Shown here: positions 3,001 to 12,000 of the stretch, piece by piece
Layout of the letters: the number at the start of each line of letters is the position of its first letter
How positions within the stretch are numbered: the stretch's first letter is position 1
From: Gekko japonicus
Lineage: Eukaryota
Length of the DNA: 64,000 nt
Reading direction: 5' to 3'
NCBI RefSeq assembly: GCF_001447785.1
Contig: NW_015173124.1
Location: 269,845 to 333,844 of the forward strand
Program-made: the position numbers

Positions 3001-6000
3001 ATGGTGCACGATCCTTTTTGCCACAGAGATCATGAGAAGGCTGGGGCAAGAGACTACTGTGGGGTTCAATCATCAATATGAACTCCAGTCTTCCAAATTA
3101 TTATCTGAAGAATTTTGCCTCAAACCTTAGAATGTGTTCTGGTAGTTTTTAAATACATTAGTTCATTTTTGAGATATGTGCATTTTAGAAATTGGGTTAA
3201 TTAATCAGTGGTGATGGAAAGTGCCGTCAAGTCACAGCTGACCGATGGCAACCCCGTAGGGTTTCCAAGGCAAGTCGCATTTAAAGGTGGTTTGCCACTG
3301 CCTGCCTCGTCATGACCCTGGTATTCCGAACATTCAGAAATCACTCAGGTTTCATTTTGCAACCAGGACTGACAAAAAAAAACCTGAGAAGAAAGGATTC
3401 TAACAATCAGAGATTTAAGAGCCACCAGATGTTCTTGCATAGAGGTCCTTGTTTCACTGCAATATTTCAGCTTACTTAAATACTAAATACCCACTTACAG
3501 TGAAGGTGGATGCTACTGACACTATTAGTAAGGTGAGGTCTCATTCTTTATTCAAGCACAGGCAATATCCTGCTATTCAGGGCTGCATTTGAAAACTTAC
3601 CTTGAATCCCCCCCTCAAATCTTGACGAAAAAAATCAACTCCGATACTAAATTGACCCAGCTGATTTGTGTCCAACATAGCTCATTTGGACTCTTTCTTT
3701 CAGAAATGCCAAAGGCTTAAAAACAATCACTTCAGAGGAAGTGATCAGAGCTCACTGTGAGAAGAGGCCTCCATACCACTCCCAACCCAAGGGGGGGGGG
3801 ATCACCTTCTGCTTGAATTTCAAAACCGCTCTTTCCATTTGCTTCAGGCTTCTGTCTCGCCACTGCCTGGCCTCGTTCATCTTCCTCTGGACACTTCTGT
3901 GCAGCACCCATTTCCACACCACCACAGCTGCCACTGAGCCACAGGCAAGGGCTGCAGAAGCACGTAGCCCATCCACAGGCAGGCTCTCCCTCAGCATCTC
4001 CAGGTTCATGGCAAAAGCTCTTTGTTACCTTTGCCCAGTTGGCTCTCTCACATGGGTAGGCAGTGTCCGGTGCTATCTAGTGATACGCTGCAGAGCTGTT
4101 CCAGATCAGGAGGAGGGTCTCAAACTTCAGGCCAAGACTACTCCCAAGACATCTCAGAACCCGAGCCTCGTTTATATGTAGCTAAGCAGCTAAGGGAATT
4201 TTTTTTCTCTTGTTAAAACCAAATACCTCTACTCCCCCCTCCCCAAACATAACTCAGTTACACAGAAATAAATATTAATAAATGAAGGACAATTTTTAAA
4301 CATATATTTGTATTTTTAATGACACACCAATGATTCACAAACAAAATAAAGCCCATTTCATAACTCTTTAAAAAGTTACAAATCTATAAAACGATAACAA
4401 GCTCTTTCATCTATACGGAAATATTTTAAATGAATATAAATGTCTCTCAAAATCCACGCCAATTAGGGCTACAGGAGTAACCTTTAGGACTTTGAATTGT
4501 GGCCAAGAAGGAAGAGGCAGACTCTTAACTAAAACCAAAAGCTCACTGGCATGCTTGGGAAGCTGCAATATTAACCCACTCCCATACTGCCAAGTGACTT
4601 ATTAATGGCCGCCCTTTGTACCCTGTCTCTTGCACACCAGTGACTCTGCTCTCGTTTTTAAAAGTCACTGCAGGGGGGTGAAGAAGGTCCTTACATTCTT
4701 TCCTTTCTGTTCAGCATTTCAACTCCCAGTTTCCAGAACAAACGGGCAAACACTCCCTGCCTCACCACTCAGGGCTGTGCTAATACAGCAGCGGCAGCAG
4801 CACAGATTCCAAAGACCCTTTGCTGGAAGCATTCACAGAGGGACAAGCAAGCATGTGACTGTTGCTGCAATTTCATTGGTCACGTGACACAGAAGCACTG
4901 AAATGATTTAATCAAAGACAGTGTCAGATCCCAGAGCCCAGCTGTTAGATCGCGCTAACAAAGGACTCGTACAGTGATTCAGCAAGTGATTCAGCTTTAT
5001 TGGAAGTAACGAACAAGCACTAACTCAGTAAGAAACCAGAACAGAAAACAGTGGGAGCTTATGCTCCTTTTAAACATAACCGGGCTAATGTAGCCACGCC
5101 TATTTACAAATAACAACCAATGAGATTGCTAGAATAAAGACCAATGGGAGTCTTTCCCTCCTAGGGAATGGTATCGTTCTGATTGGTCGCTGTTACGAAG
5201 CGACCAATAGGAAGTTCGCTCAGAGGAGCCCTGGTCTGGCTCGAAGCTTAACAGGGGAGTCCTATGAGGTGATTCATGTAATCATTTCAATACATTACAA
5301 TTCCTCCCCCCTAAGTTAAGCCATCATCCCAATTGTTTTATTATTTACAAACATGCAATCAACCCTTGTACATCAGTTATTCCAACAGTATTTACACTCA
5401 TAGTCCTTCAGATAAGTCGGCATTTGCCGCGAACGCTGGGACCTGCGGAGCGGTGCAGGCTCCACGGGCAGACAAGGTTGTGGGTCAGAGTGGGGTTCAC
5501 TACAGCCTGGATCAGGCACAGACTCGACTGGGATTTCAGCCCCGCACACAGGGTTCTGCCCTGACTTGGGGACAGTACCGGGCCTTTCGGTACTCACCGC
5601 CTGCTCTGGGGGTGTCCACTCGACATCAGGGGATTCAGCCGTCGGAGAGTCAGCGCTGTCCCTAGCCCAACGTCTCCTTAACTGATCTATGTGGCGCCGC
5701 CATATTCGACCGTCAGCTAACTGCACCACATACATTCGAGTACCCACAGAGTCGGATATAACCCCAGGAAGCCACAAGTGCCCGTTTGCATAATTTCGTG
5801 CGAAAACCTTGTCCCCTTTTTCAAACATGCGCACCTTCGGTTGCGCAGTGGTACGCTCGGACTGATCTTCTGTGAGGTCTGGGTGCATTCGGTTCAAACG
5901 GGTCGTGAGTCTCCGCCCCATTAACAATTCGGCCGGACTACGGCCTGTAGCACTACAGGGGGTGGTGTGCTGCAGCAAAAGAAAGGAGCCCAGCCTCTGG

Positions 6001-9000: not shown

Positions 9001-12000
9001 CTTTCATCTTTGAGACCGCAGACGAGACGGTCTCTGAGGGCTTCCTCCACGTTGTGGAAATTACATGGCCGTGCGGCTTTGCGAAGGGCCGCCACGAAAT
9101 CTGCGATGGTCTCGCCTCCGGCCTGGTTCCGCTTGTAAAAAGCGTGCCGGCAGGCGATCTCCGACGGTTGTGGAGAATAGTGAGCCTTAAGCTTCTCCGT
9201 GATGTCAGCGTAGGTGACAGTCTTTATATCAGTTGGGGCCACCAACGACCTGGCTATGTCGAAGGTCCCCTTCCCGCAGGAACTCAGGAGGCATGCTCGT
9301 TTCTTCGCCTCATCGGTGATGTCGTGGGTCTCCAGATGGAACTCGAACCTGGACAGGTAGGAGTCCCAGTCTTCTGAGGAGGGTTCGAAGCACTCGAACT
9401 TCTGGCTTCCAGCCATCGGGGGAGACTTGGGCACCGGAGCTGGTGGCGCCTCCGCCGGATCGGCTGCTGTGCTCTGCCCGCTTTCTTCCGAGTCCGAAGT
9501 GTGGATGTCCGCAGGGCTGCCTACCTGCTCTAACATCCCATCCTCGTCGCCAATTGTTAGATCGCGCTAACAAAGGACTCGTACAGTGATTCAGCAAGTG
9601 ATTCAGCTTTATTGGAAGTAACGAGCAAGCACTAACTCAGTAAGAAACCAGAACAGAAAACAGTGGGAGCTTATGCTCCTTTTAAACATAACCGGGCTAA
9701 TGTAGCCACGCCTATTTACAAATAACAACCAATGAGATTGCTAGAATAAAGACCAATGGGAGTCTTTCCCTCCTAGGGAATGGTATCGTTCTGATTGGTC
9801 GCTGTTACGAAGCGACCAATAGGAAGTTCGCTCAGAGGAGCCCTGGTCTGGCTCGAAGCTTAACAGGGGAGTCCTATGAGGTGATTCATGTAATCATTTC
9901 AATACATTACACCAGCTTTATGCAACATCACATTCAACAATTTCTTTCTTTTTCCCGGCTCAGCTTCTCCACCTCTTTCATGAACCGGAGGCACAGCTCA
10001 TCCTGCCAGGGTAAAGCCACACACTGGACAGCCACAGGGAGTCCTATGGCTCCTTCTACTGCCTGTAAGGAGAGAAGGGGGGGAGAAGTTTTCGTATCGA
10101 GTGTCAACACAAGGTTGCCAGCAGGTGACATTGCCAAGAAGGCCAGGCTATGTACCTTCACAAAGGTCCTGTCCCACATATCATTGTAGTGGCCTCTGAG
10201 AGTTTTCAGATCGTCCTCATCCTTTTCTGTCACTGTTGTGACCGGTACCACTCCAGCAGGGCAGTCCAAGACATTATACAAGACGGTGTAACTTGCTCCC
10301 ACTGTGTAGATATAAAAAAAGAGAGAGAGAGACCCCACACATTGCAACCAGCAGCTCCAGCTAAGAGAAGGAACATTTGGAGAATGTTACGATTAATGCA
10401 GTGCATTTACAGCAGGCAGCTTTGCAATGTAAATCTCACAAATCATCATTACAAACCCTAGGAGACAAACGGTTATCCTGTTTTTAGAAAAAGAGATAAG
10501 GAGGAACCTGAGTGTAGATAAACAAAGAAATACAGTGCCACAGCAAATACTGTATGTTAAAAATGCTTACTAAGAACATAAGAGAAGCCAATGTTGGATC
10601 AGGCCAATGGCCCATTCAGTCCAACACTCTGTCACACAGAGGCCAAAAATACCAGGTGCCATCAAGAGGTCCAGCAGTGGGGCCAGGACACTAGAAGCCC
10701 TCCCACTGTTGCCCCCCCCCCAGCACCAAGAAAATACTATTACAATATGAAGACTGACTGGTTTTGATGCTAGTGTTTACCCCAGGCATGAGCTGCTCCT
10801 AGGAAAAACTAACAGTGTTAAAAATCATATTCCCTGTGGTTTATGCTGTACACATTTGTCCTATTCCATCCAAAGCCTAATGCATAAATACTAGCATGCA
10901 GTTAAAAATATAGCTGGATGTAATGGTTTCCCCTTTGTAAGTTTTAGAAGAACTAAGAACGTTGACAATGAAAGGAGAATTGGTCTTCAGTCATCATAAA
11001 TGTGGGGGATGTTCCCTGATTGAGAAGCCTGAATATATGTTTGAAAGAAGTGTCTCTGCTGTTGTTGATTCCTGTCTCTATACAATACAGGCAAGGCTCT
11101 TTTAAACTTCTAGTGACTTTTGTTACTCCCTTCAGGCTGGGTGTAAATAAAGAATGTCTAAATTGTGTATCAGCATTAAAGGGATAGGATTATTAAATTA
11201 CAAGAAAATGTTTCATACTGCAGCTATATTAAATAAGGCTCTGCAGAGTTCTTTCTTTAATTATATTTGAAAAATTTCAAAAACATCTAGCTGTAATGTC
11301 CTTTGTTACTGACTGTAGTGAATATATTGATCTTTACAAGAGTTTAGAACAACATTTTTGTATACTTAGTATCTAAATACTGAAGAAGAATCCCTTGAAC
11401 AGGATTACATCCCGATTCCTGTCTTGAACTTGAATTGCATTTGAATACGAATTGTCATTCCTCAGTCATTGTCTTCTTTGAACTATATTCTAGTTATTGT
11501 ATATTATTCTGCAAGTATTTCAATAATCATTCTTAACATATTCCCATTTTAGAGACAGAAAAATTGAACTTTACCTCAAACAGTCATGTGGGCTACTTCA
11601 TACATGGGACCATGTAAATCTCAATGCCAGTATCAGCAGCCTTCAACACAACACAGTGATGGGGTTGACTTTCCACAAGATCAGACTGAATTGAATGGGA
11701 GGCCATTTAACAAATGCTATGACTCCCCTGTGGCACACCTTTCACACTGAGAGGATTGCCAGTAATGCCACACACCACCTGCACCACAGAAGCAGCCACT
11801 GAGATAATTTATGAAAAATGAACAAGACAACAAGAGAAAGTCTGAACTACTGGTGTCCCAGGTTCACATCAAGCACATAGCTACCCAGCTATTCAGTCTC
11901 GTAGATCCCTTTGCTCTCCCAAGAAGAGTTAGAGAGTTATGAGAGCTTCAAAGCAAAAGCTGGGATGGGAGAACTTTTCTTCCAAACCAAACTGCACTTT

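What the first reader, a model, noticed from the sequence alone, without database searches (positions are those of the whole stretch)
4938..9936. Young intact Gypsy element between two tandem FAAH-like genes, sense to both
Seen: the 5' LTR begins about 22 bp downstream of paralogue A's TGA and carries a sense AATAAA (9608-9613). The 3' LTR, with four CCAAT motifs and a TATA-like box, ends about 930 bp upstream of paralogue B's ATG. Removing the element leaves only about 950 bp between stop and start. Inference: one insertion could replace paralogue A's 3'UTR and poly(A) site, produce FAAH-to-gag-pol read-through RNA, and donate a promoter to, or spread silencing onto, paralogue B.
Basis: partly seen in the sequence, partly recalled or inferred. 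Interest (0 to 1): 0.65.

Follow-up and report, generated by a model that had tools for sequence, protein, structure and literature searches.

The report
Young Gypsy retrotransposon in gecko FAAH 3' end
A recently inserted, unbroken Gypsy-type jumping gene sits just after the stop codon of a gecko FAAH gene and about 0.9 kb ahead of a related gene, an ordinary kind of insertion whose effect on the two genes has not been measured.

Summary
A 4,969-bp Ty3/Gypsy LTR retrotransposon lies on the minus strand at 4943-9911. Its two 357-bp LTRs differ at 1 of 357 positions, and a 5-bp target duplication (CCAGC) flanks it. One uninterrupted 1,387-codon gag-pol frame carries domains in the order PR-RT-RNaseH-INT; I counted no breaks. 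The best solved-structure match is yeast Ty3.

The host is a gecko (Gekko japonicus or a very near relative), not human. Gene A (FAAH1-like, minus strand, ATG 31599) stops at 9936-9934, 22 nt before the 5' LTR. Gene B (labelled 'vitamin D3 hydroxylase-associated protein-like', a FAAH-family amidase) starts at 4009, 933 nt after the 3' LTR. Only its first two exons are in the window. A-type and B-type proteins are about 55% identical, so the paralogy is old.

No canonical poly(A) hexamer lies between A's stop and the insertion. The first one that A's transcripts meet is therefore the LTR's AATAAA, and a swapped 3' end for A is the likeliest consequence. This is inferred. Promoter donation to B looks unproductive: an LTR-started RNA would carry 14 upstream ATGs, and B has its own TATAAA.

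No expression or population data could be reached. This is an ordinary young LTR-element insertion and of low interest.

The parts
4938..4942 (.). Target-site duplication, copy next to the 3' LTR (CCAGC)
   Evidence: Read. Identical 5-mer at 9912-9916, directly outside both LTR ends.
4943..5299 (-). 3' LTR (357 bp; TG...CA). In element sense: four CCAAT/ATTGG boxes, TATA-like TTTAAAA 5074-5068, AATAAA 5001-4996.
   Evidence: 1 mismatch of 357 against the other LTR; motif enrichment.
5301..5312 (-). Polypurine tract, ending one base before the 3' LTR
   Evidence: a 12-nt purine run abuts the LTR.
5373..9536 (-). Single gag-pol ORF, 1387 aa, 0 stops and 0 frameshifts counted. Window bounds: gag (Retrotrans_gag/PNMA-like plus CCHC knuckle) 8676-9386; protease 8232-8495; reverse transcriptase 7470-7943; RNase H 6879-7283; integrase (HHCC plus core) 6078-6560; 227-aa tail with no recognised domain 5376-6056.
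   Evidence: Pfam and motifs: CCHC, DSG, YFDD, HHCC, D-D-35-E pattern; Ty3 Gag-Pol 7q5b, E 3e-85, query 476-1208.
9535..9552 (-). Candidate primer-binding site. It starts TGG, 2 nt after the 5' LTR. The ORF's ATG (9536) lies inside it.
   Evidence: The matching tRNA was not identified: no tRNA gene in the window and no eukaryotic tRNA set was available.
9555..9911 (-). 5' LTR (357 bp) with sense AATAAA at 9613-9608
9912..9916 (.). Target-site duplication, copy next to the 5' LTR (CCAGC)
   Evidence: Read.
9934..31599 (-). Gene A, FAAH1-like. ATG at 31599, stop TGA at 9936-9934, last exon 10062-9934. 14 exon-sized matches; residues 420-432 of P0002 are unmatched.
   Evidence: tblastn with gecko FAAH1-like proteins; Pfam Amidase on 7 of 12 exon pieces; GGSSGGEG exon against FAAH1 structures, E 1e-29.
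3806..4009 (-). Gene B exon 1 (68 codons, ATG 4009, GT donor after 3806)
   Evidence: 68 of 68 residues identical to Gekko japonicus 'vitamin D3 hydroxylase-associated protein-like' P0127.
126..242 (-). Gene B exon 2. The rest of the gene lies beyond the window's left end.
   Evidence: 38 of 39 residues identical to P0127.
4907..4912 (-). ATTAAA, first canonical poly(A) hexamer beyond the insertion point. It is a candidate native signal of gene A, about 47 nt after the stop in an empty site. A second ATTAAA is at 4320-4315.
   Evidence: Use as a signal is inferred.
4171..4176 (-). TATAAA 162 nt upstream of B's ATG (B's own candidate core promoter)

Best explanation
This is a full-length, recently integrated Ty3/Gypsy (Metaviridae-type) LTR retrotransposon of a lineage common in squamates. 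It has no env gene and a single gag-pol frame.

It integrated in sense orientation into the 3' untranslated region of a gecko FAAH1-like gene, 22 nt after the stop codon. It lies 933 nt upstream of the start codon of the next gene, a FAAH-family paralogue.

**Shown**
- The element's anatomy, its unbroken state and the near-identity of its LTRs.
- The target duplication.
- The identity and orientation of both genes.
- A's coding sequence is untouched.

**Inferred**
- On this allele A's transcripts run into the 5' LTR, and most end at the LTR's own poly(A) site. That would give a 3' UTR of about 345 nt made almost wholly of LTR.
- A minority may read on into gag-pol.
- B most likely keeps using its own promoter.
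- Any effect on B would come from transcriptional interference or from silencing aimed at the CpG-rich element, not from a useful donated promoter.
For: **Element**
- LTR pair with 1 difference in 357, TG...CA ends and a 5-bp duplication.
- One open 1387-codon frame.
- Pfam order protease, RT, RNase H, integrase zinc domain, integrase core.
- gag and CCHC signals, below Pfam's cut-offs.
- The motifs CCHC, DSG, YFDD, HHCC and D-D-35-E are all present.
- The best of 38 solved-structure matches are Ty3 Gag-Pol (E 3e-85) and Ty3 RT (E 2e-64).
- 1873 relatives among 8000 scored candidates. Nearest: Gekko japonicus 'K02A2.6-like / Gypsy retrotransposon integrase-like' at 72% identity over 97% of the query, and up to 82% over 60%.

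**Youth**
- The LTR identity, plus CpG o/e 0.77 in the element against 0.22-0.29 around it.

**Genes**
-.
- A's stop sits where 3 of 3 gecko orthologues end.

**3' end**
- No AATAAA, ATTAAA, AGTAAA, TATAAA or AATAAG in the 22 nt between stop and LTR.
- The first hexamers beyond the empty site are at 4912-4907 and 4320-4315.
- The LTR's AATAAA is at 9613-9608.
- Host genes adopt sense LTR poly(A) sites, and sense LTR insertions terminate transcripts (PMC2553571 and PMC1794541, passages).
Against: - No transcript, CAGE, methylation or population data were reachable, so none of the effects on A or B is shown.
- The strength of the LTR's poly(A) site is unknown. The R-U5 region shows no special fold (z 0.16; 102 of 200 shuffles fold as well), which neither helps nor hurts.
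- One LTR difference gives a very wide age interval, and gene conversion between LTRs could make the element look younger than it is.
- The tRNA matching the primer-binding site was not identified.
- No near-identical second copy was seen. None is in the window, and the best database protein is 72-82% identical. Current activity of the family is therefore not shown.
- No G. japonicus protein came back for A's penultimate exon (best 94%, Gekko kuhli). This leaves open how, or whether, A is annotated or expressed in that species.
Confidence: 0.8

Rival explanations
1. Neutral passenger. The insertion is a young, possibly still segregating copy with no measurable effect on either gene. A gets a different but equivalent 3' UTR, and B is unaffected.
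For: A's coding sequence and stop are untouched. B has its own TATAAA 767 nt beyond the LTR. Young LTR elements are common in squamates and are transcribed (PMC3157835, passages).
Against: The whole 3' UTR after nt 22 is replaced or displaced by about 5 kb. In mammals sense-oriented LTRs inside transcription units are depleted, which is read as selection against them (PMC1794541). 276 CpGs were added next to two promoter/terminator regions.
Confidence: 0.35
2. Promoter donation. The 3' LTR drives, or adds an alternative start to, gene B.
For: The 3' LTR carries four CCAAT-type boxes and a TATA-like box pointing at B, 933 nt from its ATG.
Against: An unspliced LTR-started RNA must skip the LTR's own AATAAA (5001-4996). 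It would carry 14 upstream ATGs, and the 6 in frame with B are each followed by 8-19 stops. B keeps its own TATAAA. 3' LTR promoters are usually occluded when the 5' LTR or an upstream gene is transcribed (general knowledge, not from a call).
Confidence: 0.1
3. Silencing spread. Host repression aimed at the element (DNA methylation, small RNAs) lowers expression of A, B or both.
For: The element is CpG-rich (o/e 0.77; 276 CpGs) in CpG-poor surroundings (o/e 0.22-0.29). It sits within 1 kb of B's promoter and at A's 3' end.
Against: There are no methylation or small-RNA data. The undecayed CpG content fits youth, but it would also fit a copy that is not methylated in the germ line.
Confidence: 0.2
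4. It is an endogenous retrovirus or an assembly chimera and not a Gypsy insertion.
For: Retroviral RT and integrase structures also match, but far more weakly.
Against: Ty3 is the best match by over 20 orders of magnitude of E-value. Only 73 nt lie between the ORF's stop and the 3' LTR, so there is no room for env. Pfam finds the RT_RNaseH_2 and Integrase_H2C2 domains. A perfect 5-bp target duplication argues against a chimera.
Confidence: 0.01

Closest known systems
Ty3/Gypsy LTR retrotransposons of squamates annotated as 'K02A2.6-like / Gypsy retrotransposon integrase-like protein 1' (Gekko japonicus, Eublepharis, lacertids, snakes)
   Same: Same domain set and length class. In the tree the window's ORF groups with two G. 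japonicus proteins (bootstrap 100) inside one squamate clade (100).
   Different: No database protein is closer than 72% identity (97% coverage) or 82% (60% coverage). This copy or family is therefore not represented at near-identity in the protein set searched. DNA copies could not be searched, because no eukaryotic genome collection was available.
Yeast Ty3 (solved structures 7q5b, 4ol8)
   Same: RT-RNase H-integrase aligns over query residues 476-1208 at E 3e-85. The pol domain order is the same.
   Different: Ty3 expresses pol through a frameshift and targets Pol III genes (recalled). Here gag and pol share one frame, and no tRNA gene is in the window.
Mag-lineage vertebrate Gypsy elements such as Jule of Xiphophorus (Volff et al. 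2001; only the title was seen, in the reference list of PMC5381603)
   Same: From recall only: about 5 kb, short LTRs, gag and pol in one frame, no env.
   Different: Not tested. No reference sequence of Mag or Jule came back as a named hit, so clade membership is a lead only.
Sense-oriented LTR/ERV insertions that supply poly(A) sites to host genes (mouse ETn/IAP mutations; human MaLR/ERV1 LTR poly(A) sites)
   Same: A sense LTR with its own AATAAA lies inside a transcription unit, downstream of coding sequence (PMC2553571 and PMC1794541, passages).
   Different: Those cases have transcript evidence and this one has none. Here the insertion is after the stop codon, so no protein truncation is expected.

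Membership tests
Ty3/Gypsy (Metaviridae-type) LTR retrotransposon | Two direct LTRs with TG...CA ends, flanked by a 4-6 bp target duplication | tested here: met
   357-bp LTRs with 1 difference in 357; 5-bp CCAGC on both sides.
Ty3/Gypsy (Metaviridae-type) LTR retrotransposon | pol domain order protease - RT - RNase H - integrase | tested here: met
   Pfam positions 348-435, 532-689, 752-886, 993-1153. The protease match is below Pfam's cut-off, but a DSG motif is present.
Ty3/Gypsy (Metaviridae-type) LTR retrotransposon | RT and integrase closest to Ty3/Gypsy references, not to retroviruses or Copia | tested here: met
   Ty3 Gag-Pol E 3e-85 and Ty3 RT E 2e-64. The next best, 8r0s ('Enzymatic polyprotein'), is at 3e-44; chains labelled Pr125Pol, Gag-Pol or RT/RNase H p80, and PFV integrase, are at 1e-17 or weaker than 1e-28.
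Ty3/Gypsy (Metaviridae-type) LTR retrotransposon | gag with capsid-like domain and CCHC zinc knuckle | tested here: met
   Retrotrans_gag E 1.7e-4, PNMA 9.4e-4, zf-CCHC 6.7e-3, all below the curated cut-offs. Exact CCHC pattern at aa 273-286.
Ty3/Gypsy (Metaviridae-type) LTR retrotransposon | Primer-binding site complementary to a host tRNA 3' end next to the 5' LTR; polypurine tract next to the 3' LTR | tested here: inconclusive
   The polypurine tract is present. The candidate site starts TGG 2 nt after the LTR. The tRNA was not identified (0 tRNA genes in the window).
Chromoviruses (Gypsy with integrase chromodomain) | Chromodomain at the integrase C-terminus | tested here: not met
   No chromo-type Pfam hit in the whole ORF at E<=0.01, nor in the last 227 aa at E<=1.
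Errantivirus-like Gypsy / endogenous retrovirus | env-like third ORF | tested here: not met
   Only 73 nt lie between the gag-pol stop and the 3' LTR.
Mag lineage of Ty3/Gypsy | Grouping with Mag/SURL/Jule references in an RT phylogeny | not tested
   No named reference was obtainable from the tools. The single gag-pol frame fits what I recall of the lineage.
FAAH (amidase-signature family), gene A | Amidase domain with the Gly/Ser-rich signature and closest similarity to FAAH1 | tested here: met
   Pfam Amidase at E<=1 on 7 of 12 exon pieces, 3 of 12 above the cut-off. The exon carrying GGSSGGEG matches FAAH1 structures at E 1e-29. Exons were searched one by one.
FAAH (amidase-signature family), gene B | Amidase domain; closest similarity to FAAH1 | tested here: inconclusive
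   The two exons in the window precede the domain (0 of 2 with an Amidase hit). They are 68/68 and 38/39 identical to P0127, whose full length matches FAAH1 structures at E 2e-196. Membership therefore rests on the orthologue, not on window sequence.
LTR-derived host poly(A) site | Host transcripts that end at the LTR's poly(A) site | not testable with these tools
   No transcript data were available. Only the signal and its position are shown.

The most novel reading that the evidence does not exclude
The copy belongs to a Gypsy lineage that is still moving in Gekko and that has passed horizontally between squamates and their parasites.

- A Rhipicephalus microplus tick protein nests inside the squamate clade.
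- Trichinella plus a soft tick form the sister group of that clade.

On this reading the particular insertion is a segregating allele that has replaced the 3' end of an endocannabinoid-degrading enzyme gene and alters its expression or that of its neighbour.
Probability: 0.12. Interest if true: 0.55.

Novelty: new member of a known kind. Interest (0 to 1): 0.22.

Why it matters
If the inferred effect is real, this locus would be a clean natural example in a reptile of a young LTR element swapping the 3' UTR of a conserved enzyme gene (FAAH). The same element places a CpG-rich silencing target and an outward-facing promoter next to a paralogue. That would be useful for studying how recent insertions change 3'-end choice and neighbour-gene expression outside mammals. 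As it stands, it is a well-formed but ordinary insertion. Young Gypsy elements are known in squamates, and LTR poly(A) capture is textbook.

Tried and rejected
1. **tRNA for the primer-binding site.** ARAGORN found 0 tRNA genes in the window, and no eukaryotic tRNA set is available. The tRNA stays unidentified.
2. **RNA families.** Rfam gave 0 matches at gathering score in the whole window.
3. **R-U5-leader fold.** I looked for a hairpin that might mask the 5' poly(A) signal. The fold gave z 0.16, and 102 of 200 shuffles fold at least as well. There is no signal.
4. **Other copies or solo LTRs in the window.** blastn of the element against the window found only itself and the LTR pair.
5. **Chromodomain or any domain in the 227-aa integrase tail.** Only two DUF hits below cut-off.
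7. **Literature on 'K02A2.6'.** 24 papers hold the term and 12 were listed. None of the 12 titles concerns the clade of these elements.
8. **Literature on G. japonicus.** 7 papers hold 'Gekko japonicus', 'Gypsy' and 'LTR'. The genome paper lists Gypsy only among repeat classes and has 0 mentions of FAAH or amidase. Its repeat tables are supplements that I could not see, and they may list this family.
9. **Literature on gene B's name.** 0 papers hold 'hydroxylase-associated protein' together with 'fatty acid amide hydrolase'.
10. **A search with a mis-formed term.** One search failed and was not repeated.
11. **Collections.** Viral and metagenome contigs are closed, and genome contigs holds only bacteria and archaea. 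The empty site, other copies and orthologous loci could not be looked for.
12. **Rejected readings.** Endogenous retrovirus and assembly chimera (see rivals).

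
Full report
**What is there**

Reading 4500-11200 and comparing the two repeat copies base by base gives two 357-bp LTRs, at 4943-5299 and 9555-9911. They differ at 1 of 357 positions. Directly outside them the same five bases, CCAGC, occur at 4938-4942 and 9912-9916.

The coding strand is the minus strand. In element sense, 9911-9555 is therefore the 5' LTR and 5299-4943 the 3' LTR, and each reads TG...CA. A candidate primer-binding site starting TGG follows the 5' LTR after 2 nt, and a 12-nt purine run abuts the 3' LTR. The element is 4,969 bp long. 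No other copy or solo LTR is in the window.

**Coding capacity**

One ORF of 1387 codons runs 9536..5373 on the minus strand. The other two minus frames hold 53 and 82 stops. I count no stop and no frameshift in gag-pol.

- Pfam places protease (348-435, below cut-off), RT (532-689), RNase H (752-886), the integrase zinc domain (993-1047) and the integrase core (1079-1153) in that order.
- The N-terminal third gives weak but coherent gag signals: Retrotrans_gag, PNMA and zf-CCHC, all below cut-off.
- The patterns CCHC, DSG, YFDD, HHCC and D-D-35-E are all present.
- Only 73 nt separate the stop from the 3' LTR, so there is no env.
- No chromodomain was found.
- Of 38 solved-structure matches at E<=1e-5, the best are yeast Ty3 Gag-Pol (E 3e-85, query 476-1208) and Ty3 RT (2e-64). 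8r0s ('Enzymatic polyprotein') follows at 3e-44, and the remaining reverse-transcriptase, Pol and integrase chains are weaker still.

This is a Ty3/Gypsy element without env.

**Relatives and host**

The protein search scored 8000 candidates, of which 1873 reached E<=0.001, and 120 were listed.

- The nearest are Gekko japonicus 'K02A2.6-like / Gypsy retrotransposon integrase-like' proteins, at 72% identity over 97% of the query and up to 82% over 60%.
- Other squamates are at about 45-61%.

The flanking genes point the same way.

- A's penultimate exon is 94% identical to a Gekko kuhli protein (6 hits among 12 candidates, 5 of 6 squamate).
- B's exon 1 is 68/68 identical, and exon 2 38/39 identical, to G. 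japonicus P0127.

The window is from G. japonicus or a very near relative. It is not human.

**The two genes**

Exons were searched one by one; I left out the step of joining them.

Gene A (minus strand):
- tblastn with three gecko FAAH1-like proteins gives 14 exon-sized matches, from the ATG at 31599 to the TGA at 9936-9934. Residues 420-432 of P0002 remain unmatched, probably a short exon.
- Pfam Amidase hits 7 of 12 exon pieces at E<=1, and 3 of 12 above the cut-off.
- The exon with the GGSSGGEG signature matches FAAH1 structures at 1e-29.
- All 3 of 3 orthologues end where A ends. The insertion therefore leaves the coding sequence intact.

Gene B:
- It starts at ATG 4009. Exon 1 runs to 3806 with a GT donor, and exon 2 is at 242-126. 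The rest is off the window.
- Its G. japonicus orthologue is labelled 'vitamin D3 hydroxylase-associated protein-like'. It matches FAAH1 structures at 2e-196.
- It is 54-56% identical to A-type proteins.

'FAAH-like' therefore holds for both genes. They are old paralogues, each with orthologues in several geckos.

**Geometry**

- Stop to 5' LTR: 22 nt.
- 3' LTR to B's ATG: 933 nt.
- Without the element: 950 bp.

All three units are on the minus strand.

**LTR signals**

In element sense the LTR reads as follows:
- ATTGG at LTR position 92, CCAAT at 114, ATTGG at 155 and 179.
- TTTAAAA at 226-232.
- CCAATAAA at 297-304, which contains the AATAAA.
- A CA and a T/GT-rich stretch before the LTR end.

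There are five CCAAT/ATTGG pentamers against 0.75 expected, and 5 of 5000 shuffles reach five. This is the usual U3-R-U5 layout. The start site and cleavage site are inferred from spacing.

**Likely consequences**

The 22 nt between A's stop and the LTR hold none of the five hexamers scanned: AATAAA, ATTAAA, AGTAAA, TATAAA, AATAAG. Beyond the empty site the first are ATTAAA at 4912-4907 and at 4320-4315. Wherever A's native poly(A) site was, it is now about 5 kb further from the stop.

The first signal A's polymerase meets is the LTR's AATAAA at 9613-9608. Sense LTR poly(A) sites are known to be adopted by host genes, and they terminate transcripts in mouse ERV mutations (PMC2553571 and PMC1794541, passages read). 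I therefore think it most likely (about 0.6) that A's mRNAs from this allele end in the 5' LTR, with a UTR of about 345 nt. Read-through into gag-pol would be a minor product. This is inference.

For B:
- An unspliced RNA started in the 3' LTR would have to skip the LTR's own AATAAA. It would carry 14 upstream ATGs.
- B has its own TATAAA at 4176-4171.

Useful promoter donation is therefore unlikely.

The element adds 276 CpGs at o/e 0.77 to DNA at o/e 0.22-0.29. That supports youth and makes the element a plausible methylation target. Spread of silencing is untested.

**Age**

One difference in 357 gives a divergence of 0.0028. With a neutral rate of about 1-2.5e-9 per site per year (recalled, not from a call), this is roughly 0.6-1.4 million years. 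The Poisson interval for a single event is very wide, from almost zero to several million years.

**Context and novelty**

- Gypsy elements are listed among G. japonicus repeats (PMC10776941, passages). The repeat tables are supplements that I could not see.
- Recently expanded, transcribed Gypsy elements are reported in a snake (PMC3157835, passages).

This is a new member of a known kind, and the locus is of modest interest until transcripts are examined.

**By-product**

I built a neighbour-joining tree of the window's ORF plus 37 of the 120 listed hits. I hand-picked these for coverage and taxon spread. The tree used 1246 columns and 100 bootstraps.

- All squamate copies form one clade (100). 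That clade also contains a Rhipicephalus microplus tick protein (P0012, a cluster of 41 members) and the unnamed P0011.
- Trichinella plus the soft tick Ornithodoros form its sister group (86).
- P0012 is 63-64% identical to two gecko copies, above the squamate-to-squamate median of 53% (153 pairs).

This is a lead for horizontal transfer, or for contamination. Ticks have been proposed as vectors for BovB (PMC12914980, passages). My search for Gypsy, tick and squamate transfer found 105 papers holding at least 3 of the 4 terms, and none of the 12 listed titles reports it. That is weak evidence that it is not in print.

**Not checked**

- All expression and methylation claims.

Noticed in passing
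window 5373-9536 (-); proteins P0012, P0011, P0017, P0046, P0078: In an NJ tree (38 sequences) a Rhipicephalus microplus tick protein nests inside the squamate clade of this Gypsy lineage (bootstraps 100, 99 and 85). Trichinella plus Ornithodoros form the sister group (86). The tick protein is 63-64% identical to two gecko copies, against a squamate median of 53%. This points to horizontal transfer or contamination.
   Followed up: partly
window 35265-35579 (-) and 56393-57586 (+): An open frame with an RsmB/F-type methyltransferase match (E 2.6e-5, below cut-off) lies upstream of gene A. A 398-codon open frame has as its nearest Atlas cluster 'leucine-rich repeat-containing protein 41-like' (score 0.90, a weak lead). 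From recall, NSUN4 and LRRC41 neighbour FAAH in mammals, so gene A may be the syntenic FAAH orthologue.
   Followed up: partly
window 13247-13633 (+) and 54851-55420 (-): Two open frames have partial reverse-transcriptase matches (RVT_1, E 1.6e-5 and 5.1e-4, below cut-off). They are probably decayed retroelement fragments. The first lies in an intron of gene A, antisense to it.
   Followed up: no
window 4943-9911 against its flanks: The element's GC content is 0.54 and its CpG o/e 0.77. Gene A's body has o/e 0.22 and the A-B spacer 0.29. The element has not undergone the CpG decay of its surroundings.
   Followed up: partly
window 9534-9552 (-): The gag-pol ORF's first ATG (9536) lies inside the candidate primer-binding site, 18 nt after the 5' LTR. 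The open frame extends 5 codons further upstream. The leader between LTR and ORF is therefore almost nil.
   Followed up: no
window 7927-8697 (+) and 8694-9377 (+): Two long ORFs (256 and 227 aa) lie antisense to gag and protease inside the element. They were not searched. They may simply reflect the GC-rich coding strand.
   Followed up: no
gene A, window 10150-10296 (-): The search with A's penultimate exon returned no Gekko japonicus protein (best 94%, G. kuhli), although gene B's exon 1 found a 100% G. japonicus match. A may be absent from, or differently modelled in, that species' protein set.
   Followed up: partly
protein P0052: A snake gene model named 'FK506-binding protein 15 isoform X1' (2081 aa) carries the RT, RNase H and integrase domains of this Gypsy lineage together with an FKBP domain. 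This is an annotated gene-element fusion in another squamate.
   Followed up: no
window 30309-30774, 40033-40250, 43665-44120: Tandem arrays with periods 138 (3.1 copies), 109 (2 copies), and 123 and 61 (2-4 copies). The last sits in the GC-richer stretch 42-44 kb. The first lies in intron 1 of gene A.
   Followed up: no
window, three N runs (425 N in all): None lies in the element. One lies in intron 1 of gene B. They were left as they are.
   Followed up: no
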